This document shows, piece after piece, positions 3,219-48,513 of a DNA stretch of 64,000 nucleotides (positions are counted from its first letter, which is position 1; each line of letters begins with the position of its first letter). Both the position numbers and the translations under genes were made by a program. The DNA is taken from positions 32,001-96,000 of the IMG/VR virus record IMGVR_UViG_3300049847_000198. One strand, 5' to 3'. This DNA is from a virus. The notes beneath the pieces were generated by a model. That model was not told the origin of the DNA, searched no databases, and saw nothing but the letters and a program-made list of their open reading frames with translations.

Positions 3219-6200
3219 ATGGCAACAGTCACGCGGATACCGACCGAAGCGGAATACCTTGAACGCGAGCGGCGAATGCTCGATAAGCAACTCGCGGCGG
3301 TTGAATCGGCACCGCTCGCGGAGCGGCGCGAAGGGGCGGCGGATTATGGCCGTGGATTGCGGGATAATCCCGAAATCATCGCGGAGCGTATCGGATGGAT
3401 TTTCAACGGTTCTTATGGTCGCGGAGCGTATGACCGCGCTCACGAATGGCTCGCGGCGTATCGCGAATCGCCGAAGCGTCGCGAGACGATGATTAAGTTC
3501 AATTTGTGCTGCTTGCTGGCGGCACTTGACGACGCTTGCCCGTCGCGGATGGCGGTGAATCAATGGAAAAAACTGACGACCGAACAACAACAACGGCTTG
3601 ACGTTCTTTTGACCGCCGAAATTGCCGACGCAATGAAGGGAGATGATTCCGAATGACTCCCGAAGAAATCGGCGAACTTGACGACAGCGAATTCGACGTT
3701 GACGCAATCAGAATCGACGTGAGGCACAACAACTTCTCCGCCGATCGGCTGGCAGAGTACCGGCACGAAAACATCGTTCAAGCGTCGCTCATCAACGGCC
3801 AGTTTACGCAAGCCCGTGAGCAGTGCCGATCTTATGGCTTGGACTATCAAAGCGAACTGAGTCGATTCAACAACCACTAACCCGAAAGGCAAACGCTATG
3901 TTGATTTTGAACAAGCTGAGTTCCCGCCGCGACAAGTTCGGGAATTGCTATCACGCAATCAGTGTTGAGAACGTCGAAACCGGATTGACCGCGTCCGCGA
4001 CAATCAGCGGCGACAACGCATCAACCGGACTGCTTGAATTGTTCGGAGATTGGGAAGCGGTGCGGCAACACTCACGAACACACGAACGCGAATTGCCTAT
4101 TCGCGAGTTTGACCGCTTCAAGAAAGACCTACCCTATGCCGGCTGTCGCGGTGAAGACATCGCCGCCTGGATTGTGTCGGCAGTTGGTGAACCGTCTGGA
4201 ATGAAAGAAAGGGCGACGGTGTAGCCATGTTTCCCGTTCCATTCTCTCGCGTTGTCGTCGCCGTCAACGGCGAACAACCGCAACGCTACGACCACAAGAC
4301 AGAGACCGCGCACGAGTTCGCGGCGATGCTCTACGGATGCGTTTTTCGCGAGTCACTCGGCAAGTATGCCGGGACGGAGTCGCTCGCCAACGGATGCCGC
4401 GACCGATTCACGGGCGGCACTATCACGAATTGAAAGGCAAAGAATCATGACCATCACAAAAAACGACACGCTAGACGTTCTCCCGCCATACAGCGACCGA
4501 TTCGTTTACCCAATCGGGAGACGCATCAGAACGGGCGAGGCTTGCGTTGTGTCTCACAATGTCGTCGCGGAAGTCCAGCCGGTTAGCGGCTGTCGTGGCG
4601 GCGACGGTATCGACGAATGCGCCGCAATGGCTCGCCAGTTCGCGGCACTGCCGAAGTTGCTTGAAGCGTTGGAAGATTGCATCACCAGCGACAAAGCCAA
4701 TTGCATCGTCACGAATGACGTGGCTTACATGCTTCGCCGATTCAAGTCTATCAACAAAATCGTCAGCGATGCGTTGTCGCTCGCGAACGGATCGGCCGTG
4801 CGATCGTGACCACGCTACCGAAAGGCTTCAAGAAACTGGCTTCAAGCCCGACGCTTGAGGGGCTCAAGAAACATATCTCCGCCTACTACGGCGGCGAGTC
4901 TAAAACGCTCGTTACGCGGGACGGCACTGCCAATCAATGGGACGTTTTTTCGAGCACTGTCGCGGGCAAGGCTTGCGGCACGATGGCCGTGGAAACATCA
5001 CGCGGTTTTTTCTTTGGGAGGATGGAAGCATGACATTCACGCAAAAACGATATGACGACGAAACGCAAACCGTGGCAAGGCTGGCGAAACAGTATCAAAA
5101 GCAAGTCAAAGGCATAACGTGGGGCGAGGCTATTCGATTGGCCGAAAAACACGTCTCAGAGCGAAAGGCGAATCCATGAACATCAAGGAGGCGGCATCAC
5201 GTTCTGTGCGCGAGAAGATGGCAAGGGAGATCATCTTTCAGGGCATGAGGGCGGTCGGCTATTCGGCATCCGAATCGTTCTGTCAGGCGAAGCGCATGGT
5301 GTCTCGGAACTTCGGCTTCTCGGCACAGATCGACCCTGCGAACTTTGCGGCGGGCATCATTTTTGAAAGGCCGAAACAATGACCACAAACAAAACCTGGG
5401 CCAGCCTCACGCTACTGCGTACCGAGGTCCGTTCGCTGTGCCGGCGGTACGCGGACGGGCAAGCCATCGACATCGCCGACGAACTCGGCCGGCTTGATCG
5501 GCTATCGCGGCCGGTCGGCAAGCGTGCCGAGATCGAAAAACTGATACGCGACGGACTATCCGATGCCGAGATCGTCAAAGCGTTGGGCGTCAAGAAACAA
5601 CAGGTCAATCTCATACGTCATTCAATGAAAGGGAACGCATGACCGACATCATCAATCTATCTGACGCGGAACTACAGCGACGCTATCGCGACGCGGTAGA
5701 CGAACTGGCGAGCCGCTGTCCGCTCACGGACATAGACGCGGCGGACATCAAAGGGCAAGAGTCGCCAAAGCGAGCGTTGGCGGTCGCGGCGATGGAACAA
5801 TCGCCAATCATTCGCGCTATTCACATTATGGAAGCGGTCAATTATCGGTTCCCGTTTTTCTAGTAGCCTAGGCAGAATCCCGTCGGCCTGTTAGTGTTCG
5901 TTTTAGTAAACTCAAACCCGAAAGACAAAGACCATGACGAATCTATTCGCGGAGATATCCGCATCCGCTGAGCGGCTGAATGAACGCGGCCAGGCGTACC
6001 TTGATCGGTTGCCGTTTCTTGACAACGACACGGTGATTGACCGGATTTTGGCGGCGATGCCGACGCCCCTGGAATGGGTCAACGAACAAATCGAAGACGG
6101 AGGAATGCCATACGCCGTGATGCCGCGCAACGGTTCTCTTCACTTCGTTATCGGATTCTCTGTCGTCAGTCGTGACGCTCATTTGCGGAACGTCATGGAA

Positions 6201-20413: not shown

Positions 20414-20414
20414 C

Positions 20415-20513
20415 GCCGCCTCCGTTGAGAATGAGGCGGCAGGTTAGCCGAAAAACGACGGGCGTGTCATCGTTGCGTATTTGGAGTGCCGCGCGGCACC
20501 TGAGTTTCGGCTA
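20415..20513 (-). promoter_or_regulatory. Structured tape-measure leader: three-way junction plus SD-sequestering hairpin
   Basis: TAGCCGAAA/TTTCGGCTA closing stem with two inner hairpins; GCCGCCTC/GAGGCGGC hairpin covers the GGAGG. Confidence 0.55.
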
Positions 20514-22052
20514 CGCCGGAACGACTGCGACTGTCGGCGATAGGCGGGACTGCCGAAAGCAGTCAACGAGACACTGCTCAGCGAACTTTGCGTCCGACTC
20601 CGTCACCAACAGGCTATCGTGGATCGTGCCAAGAAAACGCTTCGGTCTCGCCTTGAGGAACGCGGCAGCAGCTTTGTGGATCACGTACTGGCTTTCGATG
20701 TTCTGGAGTAGCTTCGGTAAGACCGAGTGATGTGACCGCTTCAAGGTGCAGATGATCTTCCAGACGTGAGGAAATTCCCTGACAAACAAATCTCGGAACA
20801 GGCGACCCGGAACGTCTTCTTTTTCGCAGAAGATGCACTCTCTGAAGAATGTCTGTTTGAACTCATGCCGAGCCATTGATGCGTAGCTGGTGCCAGCAGG
20901 CACTAGCTTTTGGAAGTGATCGTAGAGTTGGCCTTCACAGCAGAGCGTGATGTACCGCTCGCACTCTTTCCAGTGATGCTTTACCAGCCTGATCGCCGAC
21001 AGAACATCGCTTTCGATGCTCTTGCTCAGAGGAACTGCCGAAGTCGGTTCTTGGTACAATTCCTGTGTGTTTTTGCAGTCAAAATCACCGTAAGTCGTTT
21101 CTTTAGTTGATTTTTCGTTAGATTGTTGCATCATAAGGGTGTGGGAGGGAGAGGGGCTTTCCTGCGGTTGTGTGGCGTTGTCTTGTGCGTTTGTTACATT
21201 TCGCGTCAGACGTTCAGTTGTGACTTTAGCTACACTGTAGTCGTTTTGTAATGAGTACCGTTCGATCTTGTGTATCAACTCACGTACCTTGTCAGACTCC
21301 ACGGTGTCGCTGAGGTTGAAAAGAAACATCAACAGACATCCGAAGATGAACGGCTGGCTGTTTCGGACATCGGTGTTCCAGAGTGATTCTCCGTGCCATC
21401 GCAGGTATTGCCGCAGGTCCGAGGACAGGTTCGTTAGGTTACTATGAACTCGCCCGTACTTGTCTTCCATCAAAAAGAATTGATGCGTTGAGATCATGGT
21501 GATGCTTGACTCGTCCATCCATTGAGCGAACTTCGGGTTCTTGGTTGCCGAATAGTCCTTGGCGAATCGCACATGCCGCAGAGCCGCTGGCGTGTCGATT
21601 TCCAGCCCTCTAAGCAGTTGGTACAGGGATTTGATCGTCGGACTTGAGAACCTGTCCTGCTGATCGTTTCGGAACTTGTCGATCTTGCGGTTCAAGCGGC
21701 GGTTCTTGACCGGACGGATTACTCCGTAGGCGTATCGGAATGTGCCTGTCATGCGGTAGCTCCTTGAATAAAAACCAGCCCTATAGCTCAGATCGACCTC
21801 GATGACACCATTTTCTCTAAGCCAGTCGATCCACTTCGAGAGTCTCTTCCACGAAACGACCTCCCGTAGCTTGTCGATCTTCAAGTAAACCCAATCGTCC
21901 GGGTCGTATCGCCGCGAGTCGTGCATGAATCGCCCGTAGACGCAGTGAACGATGTAGGCGGCTTCCTCCCAGTGCTTCGAGAGTTCTGGCGGCGCACGAC
22001 TGGCGATATCCAGCGTTTCAGGCAGCGTCAGATATCTCTGCGTCCAAGCCAC
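20511..22052 (-). CDS. Family-A-superfamily (TV-Pol-like) nucleic acid polymerase with N-terminal winged-helix-like region
   Basis: YGRVHS, motif A NTDVRNSQP, motif B RHEFK (RxxxK), LQNIES and motif C TIHDS, all in order. Confidence 0.7.
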   Translation of the reverse strand: MAWTQRYLTLPETLDIASRAPPELSKHWEEAAYIVHCVYGRFMHDSRRYDPDDWVYLKIDKLREVVSWKRLSKWIDWLRENGVIEVDLSYRAGFYSRSYRMTGTFRYAYGVIRPVKNRRLNRKIDKFRNDQQDRFSSPTIKSLYQLLRGLEIDTPAALRHVRFAKDYSATKNPKFAQWMDESSITMISTHQFFLMEDKYGRVHSNLTNLSSDLRQYLRWHGESLWNTDVRNSQPFIFGCLLMFLFNLSDTVESDKVRELIHKIERYSLQNDYSVAKVTTERLTRNVTNAQDNATQPQESPSPSHTLMMQQSNEKSTKETTYGDFDCKNTQELYQEPTSAVPLSKSIESDVLSAIRLVKHHWKECERYITLCCEGQLYDHFQKLVPAGTSYASMARHEFKQTFFRECIFCEKEDVPGRLFRDLFVREFPHVWKIICTLKRSHHSVLPKLLQNIESQYVIHKAAAAFLKARPKRFLGTIHDSLLVTESDAKFAEQCLVDCFRQSRLSPTVAVVPA

Positions 22053-22199
22053 GGATCATCCCGAATCGTTCGAGGATGCCGATTTCTCGTGGCCAACAAA
22101 GAACGATAGCCACACGTCTCCGACAACGTATGGCTACGCCCTGAAATAAAGCCCGTAGGCTGTTGTTCCCTGTCCATACCGAGTCGGAGTTCGGCATCC
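22053..22199 (-). ncRNA. Structured cis-regulatory RNA leader of the polymerase gene
   Basis: Five nested helices found by eye plus an alternative SD-occluding hairpin. Confidence 0.55.
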
Positions 22200-22201
22200 A
22201 G

Positions 22202-22230
22202 ATTATGCCGCTGCCGTCCGCTCGGATCAA
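22202..22230 (-). promoter_or_regulatory. Sigma70-type promoter of the polymerase gene
   Basis: TTGATC-N17-CATAAT. Confidence 0.6.
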
Positions 22231-23111: not shown

Positions 23112-23183
23112 TGCGACGTGACGGAATCGAACCGCCTTTCAGGGAGTTGAAAATCCCTTGCATGACCAATCTGCCAACGCCGC
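23112..23183 (-). tRNA. tRNA with an 8-nt anticodon loop (UUUUCAAC); identity ambiguous (UUC Glu or UCA opal); no encoded CCA
   Basis: GCGGCGT/ACGTCGC acceptor stem, D arm with GG, AGGGA/TCCCT anticodon stem, GGCGG-TTCGATT-CCGTC T arm. Confidence 0.8.
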
Positions 23184-29274: not shown

Positions 29275-30759
29275 ATGAACATTTCGCGAGAAGATTTACA
29301 AAAGCTGATTATTGTCAAGGACTCTGGATGCTGGCACTGGAACGGAACAATTCATCTTCCTCACTACTGCCATGTGATTGTCGATGGCGAGAAATGCAAC
29401 GCTCGTCGAGTGGTTAGGCAAGTTTTTGGACCACCATTCAACGAAAATCTTGCCCTGCTAAAGACCTGTAAAAACAACTACTGCGTTGCGCCTGCGCATC
29501 ACCTGACCGGCGATGAACGGTTTCTGAAAAACTACGCCGTCTCGGAAACTGGCTGCCATGAATGGAAGGGCGGGATTACGGTTAATGGATACGGAGTGAC
29601 AGGGAACGGAGGTGGTTGCAAAAGAGCGCACAGGAGAATGTGGGAATTGAAGGTTGGTCAAATCCCGCAAGGGATGGTCATCAGGCACCTATGCCATAAT
29701 CGAAAATGTGTTAATATCGACCACTTAGCAGTTGGCACACACCAAGACAATATGGACGACATGGTTAAGGCTGGCAGAGCCTGTAACGGATGGAAGAACG
29801 GCAATTACAAGAAGTCTTACCTAGATGAAAAAGACATCCTCGAAATCAGGCAACTTGCCTCCGAAGACGAGTTTACTCTATGGGAAATCGCCGAGGCTTA
29901 CGGAGCCGATGTAAGCTATATCTCAGACATCGCAAAAGGTGATTGCTGGCCACAGGTTGGCGGACCAAGAACGAAAAGAGAAGACGATCCGGTTTTCAAA
30001 TACATCACCAAGGGCAGCGAAAAGTTCAACGCCAAGATCACCGAGTCCGACGCAGTTCGTATCAGAGAACTATGCGACGAAGGAGTTCTCACACAGGGAC
30101 AGATTGGAGATCAGTTCGGCATCGACCAAACAGAAGTCTCTGACATCGCTCACGGAATCATCTGGAAACACGTTGGAGGGCCGATTGTTGAAGGCCACTA
30201 CCTGCCGACAAACCGAGAATACGACGTTGGCGAAGACCATCACGCAGCCAAGATCACTGAGATCGACGTCAAAGAGATTCGCAGGCTGTATGCCACAAAA
30301 GAAATGAATCAACAGCAGCTTGCCGAGCGATACGGACTAAAGCAGTGCCATGTATCCGACATCGTACTGAGTGTCTCGTGGAGTCACGTTCCGGCAGAGC
30401 ATGAGATCAAAAAGAAAACCACTGGCGTAAACTCGCAAGGCAAAGCCTGCAAACTGACAGAAAATGATGTTATTCAAATGCGAGACTGCTACCGCAACGG
30501 AGCATCGTTCTCTGAAATTGCCAAAATGTTCAAAATCTCTCCAGATGCCGCCAGAAGCACGATCATTGGACTACGATGGAGTCATGTTCCCGGAGCGATT
30601 CCCGACGCCGGAAGAAACATCACAGAGAAGGATGCGATCAAGATAAAGGCGATGCTACGAGATGGAGAGAAGCCTAGATCAATCGCAAAAGAACTAGGAG
30701 TCAAGCCGGGCGTTGTCTACAAAATATCAAGCGGTCAGTCATGGTCTCATGTGTCTTAG
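29275..30759 (+). CDS. HNH homing endonuclease: one degenerate and one intact HNH domain plus five tandem HTH repeats
   Basis: GCHEWKG...AHRRMW...IRHLCHNRKCVNIDHL...TH.DN; five K(I/L)TE.D...I...IA..FG......I..G..W.HV-type repeats. Confidence 0.85.
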   Translation: MNISREDLQKLIIVKDSGCWHWNGTIHLPHYCHVIVDGEKCNARRVVRQVFGPPFNENLALLKTCKNNYCVAPAHHLTGDERFLKNYAVSETGCHEWKGGITVNGYGVTGNGGGCKRAHRRMWELKVGQIPQGMVIRHLCHNRKCVNIDHLAVGTHQDNMDDMVKAGRACNGWKNGNYKKSYLDEKDILEIRQLASEDEFTLWEIAEAYGADVSYISDIAKGDCWPQVGGPRTKREDDPVFKYITKGSEKFNAKITESDAVRIRELCDEGVLTQGQIGDQFGIDQTEVSDIAHGIIWKHVGGPIVEGHYLPTNREYDVGEDHHAAKITEIDVKEIRRLYATKEMNQQQLAERYGLKQCHVSDIVLSVSWSHVPAEHEIKKKTTGVNSQGKACKLTENDVIQMRDCYRNGASFSEIAKMFKISPDAARSTIIGLRWSHVPGAIPDAGRNITEKDAIKIKAMLRDGEKPRSIAKELGVKPGVVYKISSGQSWSHVS

Positions 30760-32011: not shown

Positions 32012-34966
32012 TCACTTCGAGTTGATAATCCCCAGAACCTCGCTCGGAGCGAGCGGCTTCCACTTGTTGTTCGCCAGCTTGTCGATCAACGCCGATGCGT
32101 GCGTGAAAGAAATCCGGTCAGGGTCGATGCCAGCCTTCGCAATCACCTTCGCCTGCTTGTAAGTGCAGAGCTTTTCTTTTCTTCGCTGCCCAATCCGATC
32201 CAGTGTTGCCGCCGCCATCGTGAACGACATCTTCGACATCTCTTCTGGCTTCACTCCATAGTGACCGAGAGCGTCGATCATCTTCTGTGACGGCTTACGA
32301 TTGCGATGCCACTCTGGTTCACGAATCGCATGGACGTGCAGCACATGAAAAACATCCACCTTCTGTCGCGTGTACGCAACCTTCGCTTCGATCATCTTCC
32401 GCTTATCGGCATCCAACGCAAGACGTGCCATCTCTCGCTTCTGGCGTTCCGCTTCCAGTTCTTCTTCGGCCTTCTCCAAGGCTTCGACGGCGTTCTTTGG
32501 TCCGTTGCCGTCTTTCGCGTTCTCGTTCGCACGAGCAACCACTTCGTCAGGCATGTTGCCACCGAGAATGTCGATAGCAGAGACGAGCGAGTGTCGTGTG
32601 TTTCCCACAAAATCTATGGCAGTCATCGTTTTTTTACCAGACTGCTCAATAGCCGATCTGCGTTCTTCTGGAGTGCCTAGTCGCCACCAATCTCCGTTCT
32701 CGTTTTTTCCTTCGATGACATTCGGAAGAACTCGCGTTCCACGTCCAATCTGCTGAGCAACCACAGAGCGAGACTTAGTTGGTCTTCCGAGTGCGATATA
32801 CTGCGTAATTGGTGCATCAAAGCCTTCGACGCAGTTTCCCATCACAGTCACTGTTCCACGCCTTCTTGTGATGATGTTTTTGCTCTGCGTACTGACGCAC
32901 CAAACTTTTTCAGATTTCCAGTTATCTTCGACTTGTAGAGAGTGCCCTTTTGTTGTTTTGTGTATCTTGGTTTTCTTTAAGCAAATCTGATTCAGTCGCC
33001 TGCTGTTTTCTCCATTAAAAGAATCGTGAACAGAAGCCCTGTACCCACGACAGCAAGCTATCGCTTGGATTAGATCAAACAACTGCTTGTTAGCACCGCA
33101 CACATAGAAGGAGTCGCCCTCAGGCCGTATGCTGTTTTTGTGGTCCGTTCCATTTGCCATCCACCAACCGTAGAGAAAACAGTCGAACTGCTCGTTACTG
33201 AACCCCCAGTAAAGTTCGCTGCCAGACTTTTTTAGATATGGCTCAAGGCGATAAACGCCACGCCTAGCCTGTGGTCCAGAACCAGTTCCGCGAGGCAAAG
33301 ACCAACTATGTCCATCTGCCTTGAATGTCCCGGATTTCTTGTTCCTCTCAATCTTGTCTATGCCGCACTTATCGAGAAGGTGATTGACTCGATCTATGAT
33401 CGCTGGATTCTTGTTTGGTTGGAAAAGTTTGTACTCGATCCCGCCAGTCTTGAGTCGGGATGAAGTTCCGTCGCCAACCCAAAACCCAATTAACTCACAT
33501 TCTTCAAGAGTTAATTCCGGTGGATTTGAATACTTAAAACTGGCAAGATATTCGACTCGCCTAATAGCCTCGGCCTTGGCCTCAGTCTTTCCTAGGCCCC
33601 TCTTTCTTAGTTCATAAGAGAGAGAACGTATCTTTGAAGGAGTAACTTTCCTGGTCTCTTGAACTGGTTTCACATTAAATGGAACGGCAACGCCAGACAC
33701 AGGCAACTCTACGGACAATCCAGACAACTGCTTGGCTGTTTTTTTCTTGAAATCACCATCCCTGAATGTGCGATATAAGAGATCGTGGTCTTCTGTGACT
33801 CGAATTGACCTTCTTCCGGTGTCCAGTGACACCATTTTTTCTTCTGGAAGACGATCTCGCTTGATAAGTGAAATAGGCTTCTCGAACCACGCTTCTCCCT
33901 GATCCCAGTTAGCGATGAGGTGCTGGTCGGTGATTGAATCCATTCCAATAAAACCAGAGGATGTCAGGATTTCGGTTTCTGAATCAAGACATACTCCAAC
34001 ATTCACAAGCTGAGAGAACTCTCCCTTACGGAACGAATTGAATAGCCTTCTACGTCTATCCTTGTCTGAAGAAAGGACGCACCACGGATACTCTTTACCG
34101 TCGTCAGGGACGCGAGACACGATGGCGTAGCTGGACCCGGATTGCTTGCGGCAGAATATCTCGCTTGTGCGCACCGCCTGCTCAACTCCAGCAGTGAACA
34201 CGATCGTTGACTTACCGCCAGAAATGTCCCATGTGGCTTCAGTAACTCTGTGTAGCGGCTTTTCTTTAAGCATCTCCTGCTCAAGCTGTGAATCAATGAA
34301 ATCTCCACAAGAGACGCCAACCGCGTCTAACTGAAGGTCTTCGACAAATACAGTTTCCTGTTCAATCGGAACAAGCCATCCGTCATTGATCGCAGACGGA
34401 CCTCCGTTTGGACTGTAAAGCTGGTACTCGAAAGCGACCGCTTCAAAACTCTGGCCCAACGCCTGTTCGTCGCTCCTGTCTGGCGTCGCAGTAACAGACG
34501 CGACCCGACAAGCCGGATTGCCTTCAAGAAAGTAGTTCACTATATTTGAGTAAGTTTTGTTCGCCTGAACAAAATGATGGCCCTCATCAATGATTATCAA
34601 ACAAATCTCTCGTGGGTCCGGGAATTCCGAACGAAGCCTTTCTAGCCTAAACAAAGTTTGAACGCTGGCAAAAGTGATTCGAGATTTGAACTTGTTGCCT
34701 ACTCGCGTCTGTTTCTGTTGTACGATGTCGCCAAAGTCGTCGTACAGATCACGCCACATTGCGTGCGGCTGAGTGACGAGTTCCTCTCGGTGAGCGAGCC
34801 ACAGAACTTTTCCACCATCACTGCCGGCCGCAACAGACAGAGAAATGACAGTTTTTCCGCATCCTGTCGGGAGTACGCTCAAGCATGATCGCTTATTCGT
34901 TAGCGTTCCAAGAATCGCGTCCCTGCACTCTATCTGATAGTCCCTCAAGAAGTCGTCACTAATCAT
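32012..34966 (-). CDS. Superfamily 2 DEAD/DEAH-like DNA helicase containing an intein
   Basis: LRDYQ, LPTGCGKT, DEGHH, TATP, EGFDAP, QQIGRGTR. Confidence 0.92.
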   Translation of the reverse strand: MISDDFLRDYQIECRDAILGTLTNKRSCLSVLPTGCGKTVISLSVAAGSDGGKVLWLAHREELVTQPHAMWRDLYDDFGDIVQQKQTRVGNKFKSRITFASVQTLFRLERLRSEFPDPREICLIIIDEGHHFVQANKTYSNIVNYFLEGNPACRVASVTATPDRSDEQALGQSFEAVAFEYQLYSPNGGPSAINDGWLVPIEQETVFVEDLQLDAVGVSCGDFIDSQLEQEMLKEKPLHRVTEATWDISGGKSTIVFTAGVEQAVRTSEIFCRKQSGSSYAIVSRVPDDGKEYPWCVLSSDKDRRRRLFNSFRKGEFSQLVNVGVCLDSETEILTSSGFIGMDSITDQHLIANWDQGEAWFEKPISLIKRDRLPEEKMVSLDTGRRSIRVTEDHDLLYRTFRDGDFKKKTAKQLSGLSVELPVSGVAVPFNVKPVQETRKVTPSKIRSLSYELRKRGLGKTEAKAEAIRRVEYLASFKYSNPPELTLEECELIGFWVGDGTSSRLKTGGIEYKLFQPNKNPAIIDRVNHLLDKCGIDKIERNKKSGTFKADGHSWSLPRGTGSGPQARRGVYRLEPYLKKSGSELYWGFSNEQFDCFLYGWWMANGTDHKNSIRPEGDSFYVCGANKQLFDLIQAIACCRGYRASVHDSFNGENSRRLNQICLKKTKIHKTTKGHSLQVEDNWKSEKVWCVSTQSKNIITRRRGTVTVMGNCVEGFDAPITQYIALGRPTKSRSVVAQQIGRGTRVLPNVIEGKNENGDWWRLGTPEERRSAIEQSGKKTMTAIDFVGNTRHSLVSAIDILGGNMPDEVVARANENAKDGNGPKNAVEALEKAEEELEAERQKREMARLALDADKRKMIEAKVAYTRQKVDVFHVLHVHAIREPEWHRNRKPSQKMIDALGHYGVKPEEMSKMSFTMAAATLDRIGQRRKEKLCTYKQAKVIAKAGIDPDRISFTHASALIDKLANNKWKPLAPSEVLGIINSK
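32834..33991 (-). mobile_element. 386-aa intein with LAGLIDADG-like endonuclease in helicase motif V
   Basis: VNVGV|CLDSETEILT...VWCVSTQSKNIITRRRGTVTVMGN|CVEGFD; LIGFWVGDG and FLYGWWMANG blocks; visibly more AT-rich than the flanks. Confidence 0.92.
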
Positions 34967-46323: not shown

Positions 46324-48513
46324 TTAAAACTTAGTAACCACCGCAGTTGCAGTGGGACGTTTCGTTGTTGCTGATGCTTTCGCTACTTTAGCGACCACTG
46401 AAGCCACGGAACCACCAACGGCGGTTGCGACTGCCTTCGGGCGGGATACTACACAATTCGCCTTGGGCGTGAATACCACAGCCGAAGCAATAGTGACGCC
46501 TTCCTCAACCAAGGCGGCAATTGCGTTCTGCATCGAGACCGTGAGCGACGTGTGACTGAAAACGCAATCCACGGGAGTCAACGCGATTGCTAATTGACCA
46601 GTCAGAGTCATCGAACTTGAGATTGGCGTGACGTTCGTTTCCGTTGTTACGGTCAAGCCGGAACCAGACACGGCCAACGATGACGATCCGGGGCTTGCGT
46701 TTGTCTCCAAAAACACGACCGGATATGCCGCTGTTGCAATCAGTGATGCCGGGGACGGAATCGCGTCAATTGGCGTCTTTACGTCCGCAGGCTGACCAGA
46801 CACGACAAGACTTGCCGCGTCTGGATGAATGACGATTGCTTCGTTCGCAATCAGCGACTGACCAGAAAGAACCAGAAAAGATGCCGATGGAGTTAAGTTG
46901 GATTCGGCAGTGACCAGTAGATTTCCGCCACTCGCAGACAACGAGACGGAACTGGGACTGATGTTCGATTCTGTCGTGACAATTAGCGACTGGCCTGAAA
47001 GAATCAGACTGCCCGCTGTTGGCGAGAGATTCTCTCCAAACGTCACCAATAGCGATTGCCCTGACGTAGCGAGGCTTTGGTTGACTGGAGTTACGTTCGT
47101 TGCAGTCGAGACAACCAGTGCTTGCGAAGAAAGAGTCAGCGAAGAAGCAGAGAAAGAGACGTTCGTGTCCGTTGTTGCCAGCAGCGATTGACCTGTGAGC
47201 GTCAGGCTTGCAGCACTTGGTGATGCGTTTTCTTCCAGAAACACCGTTGGCGACTGCCCAGAAAGCACTAGAGACACGGCGTCTGGAGTGAGCGTCAAGC
47301 CGATAGTGATTTCAAGATTCTGCCCGTTCAGCACCAAACTGCTGGATGATGGAGCAAGATTCGTTTCTGTTGTTACCAATAAATCTTGCAGAGACGCAGT
47401 CAGCGATGCCGACGCAGGGGATACATTTGATTCGGTAGTGACTAACAGTAACCGACCTGACGCAACGAGACTTACGCTAGATGGAGTTACGTTAGATTCC
47501 GTGGTAACTAAAAGAGACTGACCGGAAGTCGCCAGGGTCGCATTGCTCGGCGATATGTTCGAGTCAGTCGTGATCAGAAGCGACTGAGGCGTCGTCGCGA
47601 GAGACGCCGCAAGAGGCGTTGCGTTTGTCTCTTTTGTGACGACCAGTGATTGACCAGAAGCTGTGAGGCTTGCCAATGAAGGCGTGACGTTCGTGTCTTT
47701 TGTGACAAGCAGCGACTGTCCGCTAGTAATCAGAGACCCAGATGTTGGTGTCACGTCAGTCGGTACAGAAGACGGAACAGGCCGCAACGCAACCGCCGCG
47801 ATGGCCCAGACCATGCCCATATCGAGTCCGGTCCAACTCATCGTCACGGCACCAGCCGGAGTTTTCTGGCCCTCGGTTGATGAGCACGCTGAACCTGACA
47901 CACCCGTGATATTACTACGCTCAGTCTGCCCGGCACCGACAGCGACAATCATGTCTGTCGTGGATAGGCAATCGACAACGAAATCGCCATCAACCGTCGT
48001 CGTGACATCGACCGTCGCGTCATCCGAACCCATCCCACCGCCACCGCTGTTTGAACTGAACGCCTCGGACGAGGTCGATTGATCGACGTTCGTAAAACTG
48101 TTGGCAGTTGCCGCCGAGTCGATGCTCCCAGACAGCGTGACCGTGCAAGATTTCGTGCCACTGTTCGGGGCGACGAGTCCCCACAATTCCGAACGGCAGA
48201 TTCCGTTCGTGACTGTTCCAAGTGATGTAAAAGACTGCCCATCTCGCGTGATGCTGCTCACGCTCCCTCCGACACTCATGATTCCGACAGAGATGACGAG
48301 GTATCTGTTGCTGCCAGAACAGGTCACGTTCCAGGAATAGCTCGACTGGAAAATCTGAGCACCGGAGTTTGATGTCTGGTCCCAGACGACCGTTGTCGGT
48401 GCCGCCGCTGGCATGAGTACCGCAACGCCAGGGGGCTTAGCGACACGATCCCAGCGTTGCCAAAGTCTCTGCCTTGGAAATACTCGCGTCAGCCTGTGGA
48501 ACAAACCCGGCAT
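46324..48513 (-). CDS. Ser/Thr-rich fibre/decoration protein with about 18 tandem 22-aa repeats
   Basis: N-terminal beta domain followed by repeats resembling NVTPSSASLTLSGQSLLVTTET. Confidence 0.75.
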   Translation of the reverse strand: MPGLFHRLTRVFPRQRLWQRWDRVAKPPGVAVLMPAAAPTTVVWDQTSNSGAQIFQSSYSWNVTCSGSNRYLVISVGIMSVGGSVSSITRDGQSFTSLGTVTNGICRSELWGLVAPNSGTKSCTVTLSGSIDSAATANSFTNVDQSTSSEAFSSNSGGGGMGSDDATVDVTTTVDGDFVVDCLSTTDMIVAVGAGQTERSNITGVSGSACSSTEGQKTPAGAVTMSWTGLDMGMVWAIAAVALRPVPSSVPTDVTPTSGSLITSGQSLLVTKDTNVTPSLASLTASGQSLVVTKETNATPLAASLATTPQSLLITTDSNISPSNATLATSGQSLLVTTESNVTPSSVSLVASGRLLLVTTESNVSPASASLTASLQDLLVTTETNLAPSSSSLVLNGQNLEITIGLTLTPDAVSLVLSGQSPTVFLEENASPSAASLTLTGQSLLATTDTNVSFSASSLTLSSQALVVSTATNVTPVNQSLATSGQSLLVTFGENLSPTAGSLILSGQSLIVTTESNISPSSVSLSASGGNLLVTAESNLTPSASFLVLSGQSLIANEAIVIHPDAASLVVSGQPADVKTPIDAIPSPASLIATAAYPVVFLETNASPGSSSLAVSGSGLTVTTETNVTPISSSMTLTGQLAIALTPVDCVFSHTSLTVSMQNAIAALVEEGVTIASAVVFTPKANCVVSRPKAVATAVGGSVASVVAKVAKASATTKRPTATAVVTKF

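What the first reader, a model, noticed from the sequence alone, without database searches (positions are those of the whole stretch)
20511..22052. Stand-alone minimal family-A-like polymerase (TV-Pol-like) of unknown template and product
Seen: all palm/finger motifs are intact (GRVHS; D in NTDVRNSQP; RxxxK; Q; HD). There is no 3'-5' exonuclease and no fused helicase. The N-terminus is winged-helix-like, and a roughly 100-aa low-complexity insert lies between motifs A and B. Established: the TV-Pol group related to PolA and T7 RNA polymerase is proposed to act as primase-polymerases in viruses and transposons. No other primase or replicative polymerase is in the window, although a clamp, helicase and flap nuclease are. 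Inference: an origin-binding initiator-primase, with its own promoter and structured RNA on both sides, forming a self-contained cassette.
Basis: partly seen in the sequence, partly recalled or inferred. Interest (0 to 1): 0.75.

Follow-up and report, generated by a model that had tools for sequence, protein, structure and literature searches.

The report
Minimal winged-helix family-A polymerase (divPolA2-like)
This phage gene encodes a half-size relative of DNA polymerase I and T7 RNA polymerase with a DNA-binding-type head; it is a distant member of an untested family already described by computation (TV-Pol 2008, divPolA2 2024), and here it and a second copy are the only polymerase-like genes found in the phage.

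Summary
Window 20511-22052 (-) is an intact 513-aa ORF. A confident AlphaFold model (pLDDT 88) has a winged-helix head (residues ~11-115). It also has an exonuclease-less family-A palm and fingers (~130-513; Z 14.4 to Pol theta, 13.2 to Klenow, 10.8-12.8 to single-subunit RNA polymerases). D228, D479, R395xxxK399, R201 and Q450 are invariant in a 50-sequence alignment drawn from more than 3,200 homologous clusters.

No Pfam, PHROG, NCBIfam or PADLOC model hits it. A profile comparison ties it to divPolA2 (probability 95.5%, E 1.6e-8), far better than to canonical PolA (52%, E 1.5e-4). In bacteria the family often sits beside tyrosine integrases, as described for TV-Pols.

A 40%-identical paralog lies outside the window. 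The 112-kb record, about 79% complete, has no canonical PolA, PolB or PolC, no Toprim or AEP primase and no DnaB.

Most likely it synthesises DNA and starts chains, as a primase-polymerase or initiator. This is untested. RNA polymerase and repair roles remain open.

The "own promoter plus structured RNA cassette" is weakly supported.

An unexpected extra: a 25-nt C-rich DNA motif in the disordered insert is conserved in both paralogs and in a Gemmataceae homologue, in different reading frames.

This scan has already reported the same kind of gene in at least 25 other genomes.

The parts
20511..22052 (-). Gene for the 513-aa winged-helix plus minimal family-A polymerase (P0001)
   Evidence: ORF. 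AF2 model has pLDDT 88.4 and pTM 0.85. Fold matches. The family has more than 3,200 clusters.
21708..22022 (-). N-terminal winged-helix domain (residues ~11-115)
   Evidence: VIA-align Z 6.3-7.3 to Fur, MarR, LexA and ORC2/ORC winged helices, among others; rows 20-50 are mostly winged-helix domains. The Z values are moderate.
21483..21707 (-). Helical linker or reduced thumb (residues ~116-190)
   Evidence: Helices 118-133, 138-147, 154-164 and 173-188 in the model. Alignments to PolA chains start at ~125-136.
21426..21473 (-). Beta-hairpin with the invariant Arg (G200-R201-V-H-S-N-L-T-N-L)
   Evidence: Strands 194-196 and 202-204. R201 is invariant. This corresponds to the conserved-Arg hairpin of the TV-Pol/PolA core (PMC2579912); that equivalence is an inference.
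21330..21389 (-). Motif A: strand ending in catalytic D228, then the N-S-Q233-P helix start
   Evidence: Strand 222-229 and helix 232-245. D228 and Q233 are invariant; N231, S232 and P234 are conserved in at least 90%.
20973..21320 (-). Subgroup-specific fingers insert (residues ~245-360): two long helices and a disordered tip (294-338)
   Evidence: Absent from most relatives, which match in two stretches. pLDDT is below 50 at 294-338. Alignment.
21132..21156 (-). 25-nt C-rich DNA motif (core TCCCACACCCTTATG) inside the insert; the template strand is G-rich
   Evidence: 23/25 identical to the paralog's insert and read in another frame. A local-composition null reaches at most 19/25 in 1000 trials. 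23/25 to the Gemmataceae homologue L015. Present only twice in the 112-kb record.
20829..20870 (-). Motif B (O-helix): R395xxxK399xxxF403 ... F408
   Evidence: hhalign to a PolA profile aligns R395 with T7 DNAP R518, K399 with K522, F403 with Y526 and F408 with Y530. K399 is invariant and F403 is conserved in at least 90%.
20691..20720 (-). L-P-K-L-L-Q450-x-x-E453-S motif (equivalent to the PolA Q615/Q849 motif)
   Evidence: hhalign aligns Q450 with T7 DNAP Q615. E453 is invariant and Q450 is conserved in at least 90%.
20601..20633 (-). Motif C: T-I-H478-D479-S
   Evidence: Strands 474-477 and 480-484. H478 and D479 are invariant. They align to T7 DNAP H653-D654 and to T7 RNAP I-H-D-S.
22053..22230 (-). 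Upstream leader with one sigma-70-like match (22230-22202) and a 13-pair hairpin plus T-rich tail (22137-22106)
   Evidence: Promoter scan found 1 match where 1.5 are expected. Fold z-score -2.93. No Rfam match. Function is not shown.
20414..20510 (-). Downstream spacer with hairpins; one is followed by a U-run and looks like a terminator, another lies just before the 1641-aa ORF
   Evidence: Fold -36.1 kcal/mol, z -2.50. The terminator reading is an inference.

Best explanation
**What it is.** The gene encodes an active, exonuclease-less, minimal family-A nucleic-acid polymerase. A winged-helix DNA-binding head is followed by a reduced thumb, a palm with the two metal-binding aspartates (D228, D479), and fingers carrying R395xxxK399xxxF403. 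It belongs to a very large unnamed family that is remotely homologous to divPolA2 and matches the TV-Pol concept.

**Most likely role.** It makes DNA on a DNA template. It acts at the start of replication of the phage, or of the integrative elements that carry its relatives. The head places the enzyme on a specific DNA site, and the core starts or extends a short DNA chain, which a processive machinery then takes over. That machinery would be the phage clamp with a host polymerase or another polymerase.

**Shown versus inferred.** Fold, homology and conservation of the active site are shown. DNA rather than RNA as product, de novo priming, site specificity and hand-over are inferred.

**Rough odds.**
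- Real family-A-fold polymerase homologue: about 0.95.
- Catalytically active: about 0.8.
- Product is DNA: about 0.6.
- Initiator or primase-polymerase role: about 0.4.
For: **Fold.**
- The AF2 model is confident.
- The 19 best of 48,161 PDB representatives are all family-A DNA polymerases or their single-subunit RNA polymerase relatives: Pol theta Z 14.4 over 256 residues at 3.6 A, Klenow 13.2, T7 DNAP 12.6.
- All listed top Foldseek PDB hits are PolA.

**Active site.**
- R201, D228, Q233, K399, H478 and D479 are invariant over 50 diverse relatives; Q450 is at 90% or more. R395 is invariant in the 10- and 8-sequence subsets.
- hhalign to a PolA profile (E 1.5e-4) aligns R395/K399/F403/F408 with T7 DNAP R518/K522/Y526/Y530, Q450 with Q615, and H478-D479 with H653-D654.

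**Features pointing to a DNA product (inference).**
- There is an aromatic residue at the Y526/F762 sugar-selection site.
- Gln sits where DNA polymerases have Q615/Q849; T7 RNAP has His784 near that place, from my own knowledge.
- By ungapped spacing, a bulky invariant Q233 falls at the steric-gate position (E480/E710), where T7 RNAP has Gly (my own knowledge).

**Family link.**
- Homology to divPolA2: probability 95.5%, E 1.6e-8, 292 columns. The divPolA2 profile also hits the paralog.
- divPolA2-group phage proteins rank above canonical PolA in BFVD.

**Context pointing to replication or initiation.**
- A tyrosine integrase lies within five genes in about 24 of 82 bacterial loci.
- The order INT - cargo - HTH_17 - small ORF - POL recurs. 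This is the setting PMC2579912 used to propose primase-polymerase activity.
- In this phage the gene sits beside HU, a MazG-like gene and the clamp.
- No other polymerase, primase or DnaB was found in 112 kb.
- The paralog starts at a strand switch, on the plateau of the cumulative GC-skew minimum.
Against: - No member of this family or of divPolA2 has been assayed.
- Motif C reads H-D-S, as in T7 RNA polymerase, not H-D-E.
- Structural scores to mitochondrial and T7 RNA polymerases (Z 12.8 and 10.8) are close to those for DNA polymerases.
- The Tyr of motif B (Y530/Y766) is Phe here, after a one-residue shift.
- Motif A was not aligned by hhalign, so the steric-gate assignment is only an inference.
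- CCPol needs an OB-fold partner to prime. No conserved small partner was found here, and no adjacent helicase.
- Neighbourhoods in phages vary.
- Two old paralogs in one genome are not predicted by a simple initiator model.
- The record is only about 79% complete, so a canonical polymerase may lie in the missing part.
- GC skew follows gene orientation here, so it is weak evidence.
Confidence: 0.4

Rival explanations
1. It is a minimal single-subunit RNA polymerase that transcribes part of the phage or element genome. The winged-helix head would serve as the promoter-recognition module. The two paralogs might serve different gene classes.
For: - Motif C is I-H-D-S, as in T7 RNAP.
- VIA Z is 12.8 to yeast mitochondrial RNAP (343 residues aligned, including the N-terminus), 10.8 to T7 RNAP and 8.8 to the 404-residue N4 RNAP II chain.
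- Yutin et al. raise the same possibility for divPolA2 (PMC11348598).
- Two paralogs are found in the genome.
Against: - Q450 aligns with the DNA-polymerase Gln, not a His. F403 sits at the dNTP sugar-selection site.
- A bulky Gln sits at the inferred steric-gate position.
- There is no specificity loop or promoter-binding N-terminal domain, and the protein is far smaller than any known autonomous RNAP.
- Relatives sit in small integrase-bearing elements, where a private RNAP is less expected than a replication protein.
- The assayed TV-Pol CCPol strongly prefers dNTPs (PMC7581432).
Confidence: 0.2
2. It is an accessory DNA polymerase for repair, gap filling, lesion bypass or recombination-dependent synthesis. 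It extends existing 3' ends, does not prime, and is not needed to start replication.
For: - Yutin et al. propose a repair role for divPolA2, because those phages have a regular PolB.
- The same family occurs in huge phages of 595-735 kb. My own expectation, not checked here, is that such phages carry full replisomes.
- The lack of proofreading and the reduced thumb fit low processivity.
- Erf, a flap nuclease and a RadD-like helicase are encoded nearby.
Against: - No regular polymerase is seen in this record.
- A site-specific-looking winged-helix head is not expected for a repair enzyme.
- Carriage in small integrative elements argues for a role in the element's own propagation.
Confidence: 0.25
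3. It makes some other product: template-independent or protein-primed synthesis, or a role in phage-host conflict. Alternatively it is mainly a selfish, mobile gene whose polymerase activity serves its own spread.
For: - Phage neighbourhoods vary, and the paralogs are not sisters in the quick tree.
- One relative carries a C-terminal NUMOD4-HNH homing endonuclease.
- A DNA motif is conserved regardless of reading frame inside the gene.
- Hairpins on both sides resemble a moron-like unit.
Against: - No PADLOC model matches ten family members.
- No recombinase lies beside either copy in this phage.
- The template-contacting residues of PolA are conserved (R201 hairpin, Q450), which argues for templated synthesis.
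Confidence: 0.15

Closest known systems
divPolA2 (Yutin, Tolstoy, Mutz, Wolf, Krupovic, Koonin 2024, Virol J 21:200, PMC11348598; prototype AUR84708 of Vibrio phage 1.063.O; Rheinheimera barbaviruses; ICP1)
   Same: - About 400-500 aa.
- An N-terminal globular domain instead of a canonical thumb or exonuclease.
- Intact palm and fingers motifs.
[quoted passage not shown]
- Untested biochemically.
- Profile-profile homology: probability 95.5%, E 1.6e-8 over 292 columns.
- The divPolA2 profile hits the paralog.
- Barba31A and Aeromonas-phage members rank above canonical PolA in BFVD.
   Different: - It is not detectable by BLAST or by a single-sequence comparison.
- The motifs differ: N-S-Q-P after motif A, and I-H-D-S against V-(H/F)-D-(E/S).
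- This branch lives in phages and integrase-bearing elements of Planctomycetota, Bacteroidota, Ignavibacteria and Verrucomicrobia, not Vibrio or Rheinheimera phages.
- There is a ~115-residue fingers insert.
- No regular polymerase was found in the same record.
TV-Pol family (Iyer, Abhiman, Aravind 2008, Biol Direct 3:39, PMC2579912)
   Same: - The same minimal core: thumb helices, an Arg-bearing hairpin, a two-Asp palm and RxxxK fingers.
- No nuclease.
- An extra N-terminal domain in one subset.
- Found in viruses and in elements with lambda-type integrases in Bacteroidetes, Planctomycetes and Verrucomicrobia.
- A proposed primase-polymerase role.
   Different: - A direct sequence link to a named TV-Pol was not obtained. 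The family profile finds nothing in phage Ma-LMM01.
- No D5-like helicase fusion or neighbour was seen.
- TV-PolN was described as all-helical, whereas this head is a winged helix in the model.
CCPol-MP primase of SCCmec and Pol-SSB pairs of Bacillota (Bebel et al. 2020, PMC7581432; Rice 2023, PMC10061031)
   Same: - An exonuclease-less family-A polymerase on a mobile element.
- The only assayed member of the TV-Pol concept: it extends primers and, with its partner, primes with dNTPs.
   Different: - CCPol keeps a relic of the exonuclease domain, needs an OB-fold partner (MP) and sits in an operon with a helicase.
- Here the N-terminus is a winged helix. No conserved small partner and no adjacent helicase were found.
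Canonical family-A DNA polymerases (Pol I/Klenow, T7 gp5, Pol theta) and T7-like or N4 single-subunit RNA polymerases
   Same: - Palm and fingers fold, with motifs A, B and C.
   Different: - No Pfam DNA_pol_A match.
- No 3'-5' exonuclease.
- A much reduced thumb.
- About half the size.
- A winged-helix head.
- H-D-S in motif C, and Phe for the motif-B Tyr.

Membership tests
Family-A polymerase superfamily (fold level) | Palm (RRM-like) plus fingers architecture superposable on PolA or T7 RNAP structures | tested here: met
   VIA-align Z 14.4 (Pol theta), 13.2 (Klenow), 12.6 (T7 DNAP) and 10.8 (T7 RNAP) over ~250 residues. The top 19 rows are all from this superfamily. All listed top Foldseek PDB hits are PolA.
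Family-A polymerase superfamily (fold level) | Two catalytic aspartates (motifs A and C) and the RxxxK O-helix (motif B) | tested here: met
   D228, K399 and D479 are invariant in 50 sequences, and R395 in the 10- and 8-sequence subsets. hhalign places R395, K399 and H478-D479 on T7 DNAP R518, K522 and H653-D654.
Canonical DNA_pol_A (Pfam PF00476) | Match to the curated family model | tested here: not met
   No PF00476 hit for the protein, for 50 relatives, or in the six-frame genome search at E <= 1.
divPolA2 | Sequence homology to the prototypes (AUR84708, barbavirus, ICP1 proteins) | tested here: met
   hhalign of A1 against A5: probability 95.5%, E 1.6e-8, 292 columns. The A5 profile hits the paralog's motif C at E 4.9e-5. 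Only profile-level methods detect it; the single-sequence and tblastn tests were negative.
divPolA2 | N-terminal globular domain, no canonical thumb, no 3'-5' exonuclease | tested here: met
   Model and fold matches.
divPolA2 | Several paralogs per phage genome, in variable neighbourhoods | tested here: met
   Two copies are in the record. No neighbours are shared with eight other viral contigs.
divPolA2 | Encoded in addition to a regular replicative polymerase | tested here: inconclusive
   No PolA, PolB or PolC model matches in 112 kb, but the record is about 79% complete.
TV-Pol | Minimal core (thumb helices, Arg hairpin, two-Asp palm, RxxxK fingers) with no nuclease | tested here: met
   Features as listed in PMC2579912.
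TV-Pol | Carried by viruses or by elements with an integrase, resolvase or transposase, or linked to a D5-like helicase | tested here: met
   A tyrosine integrase lies within five genes in about 24 of 82 loci, and the family is present in phages. No D5-like helicase link was seen.
TV-Pol | Sequence relationship to named TV-Pol members | tested here: inconclusive
   The family profile finds nothing in phage Ma-LMM01 at E <= 1.
CCPol-MP type primase | Adjacent OB-fold SSB partner and helicase in one operon | tested here: not met
   No conserved small neighbour was found across 82 loci. The upstream 90-aa ORF is uninformative. The neighbours are HU and a 1641-aa tape-measure-like ORF.
T7-like single-subunit RNA polymerase | RNAP-type substrate-selection residues and promoter-recognition modules | tested here: inconclusive
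   Q450 and F403 align with DNA-polymerase-type residues, and the protein lacks the large N-terminal domain. But motif C is H-D-S, and the PF00940 search rang in no control genome.
Any polymerase | Catalytic activity, and the nature of template and product | not testable with these tools
   This needs biochemistry.

The most novel reading that the evidence does not exclude
Each of the two paralogs would be a self-contained 'initiator polymerase plus its own start site'. The C-rich motif, whose complement is G-rich and can form a G-quadruplex, has the core TCCCACACCCTT. It sits in the disordered fingers insert and is conserved whatever the reading frame. In this reading it is a cis-acting DNA element: an origin or priming site, recognised by the winged-helix head. 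The two modules would also be the only polymerases this phage of 112 kb or more encodes, working with its clamp, helicase and flap nuclease.
Probability: 0.12. Interest if true: 0.8.

Novelty: new variant of a known kind. Interest (0 to 1): 0.45.

Why it matters
**An untested enzyme class.** Minimal family-A polymerases (TV-Pol, divPolA2) are abundant in phages and mobile elements, yet apart from one staphylococcal enzyme nobody knows what they make.

**What this case adds:**
- The divPolA2 class extends by remote homology to a very large branch, more than 3,200 clusters at 50% identity. It is found in Planctomycetota, Bacteroidota, Ignavibacteria and Verrucomicrobia and their phages, and no curated family model covers it.
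- This phage has a clamp, a helicase and a flap nuclease, but no recognisable polymerase or primase other than two such paralogs. That raises the question of whether they start, or even carry out, replication.
- A short DNA motif inside the gene is kept across reading frames, which gives a concrete candidate site for binding and priming assays.

If the priming role holds, this would be a third widespread solution to the priming problem, beside DnaG and AEP primases.

Tried and rejected
**Curated family models and PDB sequences**
- Pfam, PHROGs, NCBIfam and PADLOC gave no meaningful hit for the protein or its relatives.
- PDB sequence searches, with the single protein and with the family profile, found nothing relevant.

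**Pairwise comparisons**
- hhalign of the family against single sequences (divPolA2 prototype, T7 gp5, T7 RNAP) aligned only motif C and was not significant.
- The search for diverse PolA relatives with T7 gp5 returned only near-identical T7-like polymerases. I therefore built the PolA profile from eight phage records instead.

**Searches for relatives**
- tblastn in phage records found only four huge-phage records.
- Close relatives were absent from IMG/VR and from JGI metagenome contigs, where the best identity was 30%. Synteny in sister phages could not be examined.
- The first pattern search with the 50-sequence alignment failed, because the alignment had no stretch conserved enough to search with.
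- Longer fused forms: none found (weak evidence).
- The TV-Pol of Ma-LMM01 did not match the family profile.

**Possible partners**
- No conserved small partner was found.
- The upstream 90-aa ORF gave only low-confidence, propeller-like noise in the Atlas.
- A regex for clamp-binding motifs hit only the structural Q-P-F-I-F of motif A.

**RNA and expression**
- Rfam found only the tRNA.
- No RNA holder was listed among the sequencing runs. The only full holder is a freshwater-sediment metagenome that may be the source of the DNA.

**Other checks**
- A G-quadruplex or C-tract pattern is not a general feature of the family: 2 of 73 genes, no enrichment over neighbouring genes.
- TGA recoding as an explanation for the odd tRNA was rejected, because TGA is the commonest stop codon.
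- The large unannotated ORFs of 1166 and 729 aa, and the 984-aa helicase, gave no polymerase signal by PDB sequence search.
Full report
**The gene and its setting**

Window 20511-22052 on the minus strand is an uninterrupted 513-codon frame with a GTG start. The window is bases 32001-96000 of a 112,081-bp linear IMG/VR virus record, estimated to be 79% complete. The only full holder among public runs is a freshwater-sediment metagenome.

Neighbours on the same strand:
- Downstream: a 1641-aa low-complexity ORF that looks like a tape-measure protein.
- Upstream: a 90-aa ORF, an HU gene, a tRNA, a MazG-like pyrophosphohydrolase and a beta-clamp homologue.
- Further on: an HNH endonuclease, a 984-aa RadD-like SF2 helicase, a ParB-like nuclease, Erf, a flap nuclease and the large terminase.

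**No curated family, but a very large family**

Pfam, PHROGs, NCBIfam, PADLOC and PDB sequence searches give nothing. An exhaustive HMMER search finds 3,221 clusters at 50% identity with E <= 1e-3, and 1,279 with E <= 1e-10.

Most relatives are 380-480 aa and match in two stretches, residues 1-245 and ~360-510. So the ~115 residues between them are an insert of a small subgroup.

In a 50-sequence alignment these residues are invariant: R201, R214, D228, Q233, G374, Y377, K399, K438, E453, H478 and D479. N231, S232, P234, F403 and Q450 are nearly so.

**Structure**

An AlphaFold2 model built from that alignment is confident (mean pLDDT 88.4, pTM 0.85). Only residues 294-338 are disordered.

I compared the model with 48,161 PDB representatives without a Foldseek prefilter. 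The 19 best chains are all family-A DNA polymerases or their single-subunit RNA polymerase relatives, aligned over residues ~130-513:

| Chain | Z |
|---|---|
| Pol theta | 14.4 (256 residues, 3.6 A) |
| Klenow | 13.2 |
| Yeast mitochondrial RNAP | 12.8 |
| T7 DNAP | 12.6 |
| T7 RNAP | 10.8 |
| N4 RNAP II | 8.8 |

Rows 20-50 are mostly winged-helix domains aligned to residues ~11-115 (Z 6.3-7.3). Foldseek against the PDB lists only PolA chains among its top hits, though weakly (E about 1e-3).

There is no exonuclease domain. The thumb is reduced to a few short helices.

**Sequence-level support and residue equivalences**

A profile of T7 gp5 and seven diverse phage PolAs aligns to the family profile with E 1.5e-4 over 140 columns. 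Equivalences to T7 DNAP:
- R395 = R518
- K399 = K522
- F403 = Y526
- F408 = Y530
- Q450 = Q615
- H478-D479 = H653-D654

Motif A was not included in that alignment. By position, D228 ends strand 222-229, and the N-S-Q-P helix follows. With ungapped spacing the invariant Q233 falls where DNA polymerases have the steric-gate Glu and T7 RNAP has Gly. That last point rests on my own knowledge and is an inference.

The aromatic residue at the sugar-selection site, the DNA-polymerase-type Gln450 and a bulky residue at the inferred gate lean towards dNTP use. The H-D-S form of motif C resembles T7 RNAP. The product therefore cannot be settled by computation.

**Which known group**

Three groups were compared.

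*TV-Pol.* Iyer et al. (PMC2579912) defined it as a minimal family-A core without nuclease, found in viruses and mobile elements.
- One subset has an extra N-terminal domain and lies next to integrases, resolvases or transposases in Bacteroidetes, Planctomycetes and Verrucomicrobia.
- They proposed a primase-polymerase role.
- The only assayed member, CCPol of SCCmec, extends primers and, with the OB-fold protein MP, primes with dNTPs (PMC7581432; PMC10061031).

*divPolA2.* Yutin et al. (PMC11348598) described it as ~430-aa phage proteins with an unknown N-terminal domain, no thumb or exonuclease, two or three paralogs per genome, variable neighbourhoods and an unknown role.

*Results of the tests.*
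- A single divPolA2 prototype was not significantly similar.
- A six-sequence divPolA2 profile aligns to this family with probability 95.5%, E 1.6e-8 and 292 columns, running from the second half of the head to the C-terminus.
- The same profile finds the paralog's motif C in the phage genome.
- In the viral model library the two best matches are ~400-aa phage proteins (E 2.6e-18 and 9.5e-16, TM 0.76-0.78).
- divPolA2-group proteins (Rheinheimera Barba31A, Aeromonas phages) rank above canonical PolAs.
- The family profile finds nothing in phage Ma-LMM01, which carries a named TV-Pol. Formal TV-Pol membership is therefore inconclusive, although every structural and contextual feature fits.

**Distribution and context of the family**

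A scan of species-representative genomes found 92 relatives. They are mainly in Planctomycetota (Gemmataceae, Thermoguttaceae, Pirellulaceae), Bacteroidota (Pontibacter, Rufibacter, Hymenobacter, Flavobacteriales), Ignavibacteria and Verrucomicrobia.

Clustering of the neighbours shows one recurrent theme, a tyrosine integrase within five genes in about 24 of 82 loci. Two orders recur:
- Integrase - cargo - HTH_17 - small ORF - polymerase, in Bacteroidota.
- Polymerase - HTH_3 - integrase, in Planctomycetota.

Other points on context:
- No conserved small partner, helicase or nuclease accompanies the gene.
- No longer fused form was found.
- One relative has a C-terminal NUMOD4-HNH homing endonuclease.
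- In eight other viral contigs the neighbours differ.

**This phage**

A second copy, 40% identical, lies at G000:C1:105470-107245 (+), outside the window. It has all catalytic residues and an even longer insert.

In a quick tree both copies fall in the insert-bearing clade (SH-aLRT 93), but they are not sisters. The paralog pairs with an environmental protein (support 100). So the pair is old or was acquired separately (the careful tree search did not finish).

Six-frame searches of the whole record find none of the following at E <= 1:
- DNA_pol_A, DNA_pol_B or Pol III alpha.
- Toprim_2.
- Prim-Pol.
- DnaB_C.

The two paralogs are thus the only polymerase-like genes seen, in a phage that encodes a clamp, a helicase, a flap nuclease, Erf and HU. 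About a fifth of the genome is missing.

Cumulative GC skew peaks at 45-46 kb. It has a broad minimum at 105-109 kb, where the paralog starts at a strand switch. The target gene is ~7 kb from the maximum. Skew follows gene orientation here, so this is weak evidence.

**Flanks**

- The region holds one sigma-70-like match (22230-22202, 9 of 12 positions), where 1.5 are expected by chance.
- The 240-nt upstream spacer folds somewhat better than shuffles (z -2.93). It contains a 13-pair hairpin with a T-rich tail.
- The 97-nt downstream spacer has z -2.50 and a terminator-like hairpin.
- No Rfam family matches.

The gene may be its own transcription unit. A special leader RNA is not supported beyond that.

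**An unexpected DNA motif**

I followed a first-reader note on this genome and confirmed it.
- The two paralogs share a 25-nt stretch inside their otherwise unalignable inserts. It lies at window 21156-21132 on the minus strand and at about G000:C1:106542-106566 on the plus strand.
- It matches at 23 of 25 positions, with a 15-nt identical core (TCCCACACCCTTATG). It is read in different frames: S-P-S-H-T-L-M against H-P-T-P-L-C.
- Codon shuffles reach at most 20/25 in 200 trials. Shuffles of the two local C-rich neighbourhoods reach at most 19/25 in 1,000 trials.
- The Gemmataceae homologue L015 shares only ~30% protein identity, yet carries the same element at the same place (23/25 to gene 1).
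- The 9-mer CCCACACCC occurs in just two of 85 other family genes, L015 and L057, at residues 297 and 294. Over the four genes it is read in all three frames.
- The 9-mer and the 15-nt core each occur only twice in the 112-kb record, once per paralog.
- The complementary strand is G-rich and fits a quadruplex pattern. Such patterns are not general in the family: 2 of 73 genes.

This points to selection on the nucleic acid itself. What for is unknown.

**Verdict**

The protein is a distant, insert-bearing branch of the divPolA2/TV-Pol kind of minimal family-A polymerase.

My best reading is a DNA-synthesising initiator or primase-polymerase, targeted by its winged-helix head (about 0.4). The rivals are an accessory repair polymerase (0.25), a minimal RNA polymerase (0.2) and other roles (0.15).

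This scan has already reported the same kind of gene in at least 25 other genomes, with follow-ups that also named divPolA2. I reached that assignment independently.

The kind is therefore known. What is particular here is the absence of any other polymerase in the record, the old paralog pair, and the frame-independent DNA motif.

Noticed in passing
window 21132-21156 (-) and G000:C1:106542-106566 (+); L015 ~6095-6121; L057 (polymerase residue ~294): A 25-nt C-rich DNA motif (core TCCCACACCCTTATG) lies inside the disordered insert of both polymerase paralogs. It matches at 23/25 and is read in different frames. It is also present in a Gemmataceae homologue. The 9-mer CCCACACCC sits at the same relative place in four genes and is read in all three frames. 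The complementary strand is G-rich and fits a quadruplex pattern.
   Followed up: yes
G000:C1:105470-107245 (+), outside the window (locus L002 1330-3105): A second, 40%-identical paralog of the polymerase with all catalytic residues. It starts at a divergent strand switch, on the plateau of the cumulative GC-skew minimum (105-109 kb). It is not the sister of the window's copy in a quick tree.
   Followed up: partly
window 23112-23183 (-): A tRNA (Rfam 48 bits) with an 8-nt anticodon loop (TTTTCAAC); ARAGORN reads a four-base anticodon 'ttca'. It could be a UCA (opal) suppressor-like or frameshift-suppressor-like tRNA. TGA is nevertheless the commonest stop codon in this phage (36 of 78 long ORFs).
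   Followed up: partly
P0077 (669 aa, metagenomic relative): A full-length family member carries a C-terminal NUMOD4 plus HNH_3 homing-endonuclease module (residues 471-569).
   Followed up: partly
window 32012-34966 (-): A 984-aa protein whose first ~330 residues are a RadD-like SF2 helicase. The remaining ~650 residues match no family.
   Followed up: no
window 49001-52501 (-) and 46324-48513 (-): Two very large ORFs (1166 and 729 aa) next to the terminase gene have no Pfam or PHROG match. By PDB sequence search the 1166-aa ORF matches nothing, and the 729-aa one shows only a weak fibronectin-type repeat signal.
   Followed up: partly
G000:C1:12901-14106 (-) (L003): An IS605 OrfB/TnpB-type gene (OrfB_IS605 plus Cas12f1-like TNB domain) lies in the phage record, next to the capsid and portal genes.
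   Followed up: no
window 29275-30759 (+): A 494-aa HNH_3 endonuclease followed by several helix-turn-helix repeats, on the opposite strand within the replication region. This is a typical free-standing homing endonuclease.
   Followed up: no
LR756511.1 395206-396357; LR756501/03/04: The only phage-database records with BLAST-detectable relatives of this polymerase are uncultured huge phages of 595-735 kb.
   Followed up: no
loci L034, L042, L067, L076, L088, L091, L093: Bacteroidota loci show a recurrent small integrative element: integrase - variable cargo - HTH_17 - small ORF - polymerase. In two loci the cargo is a ~440-aa protein with an AlbA_2/Schlafen-like N-terminus, identified from my own recall of the sequence pattern.
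   Followed up: partly
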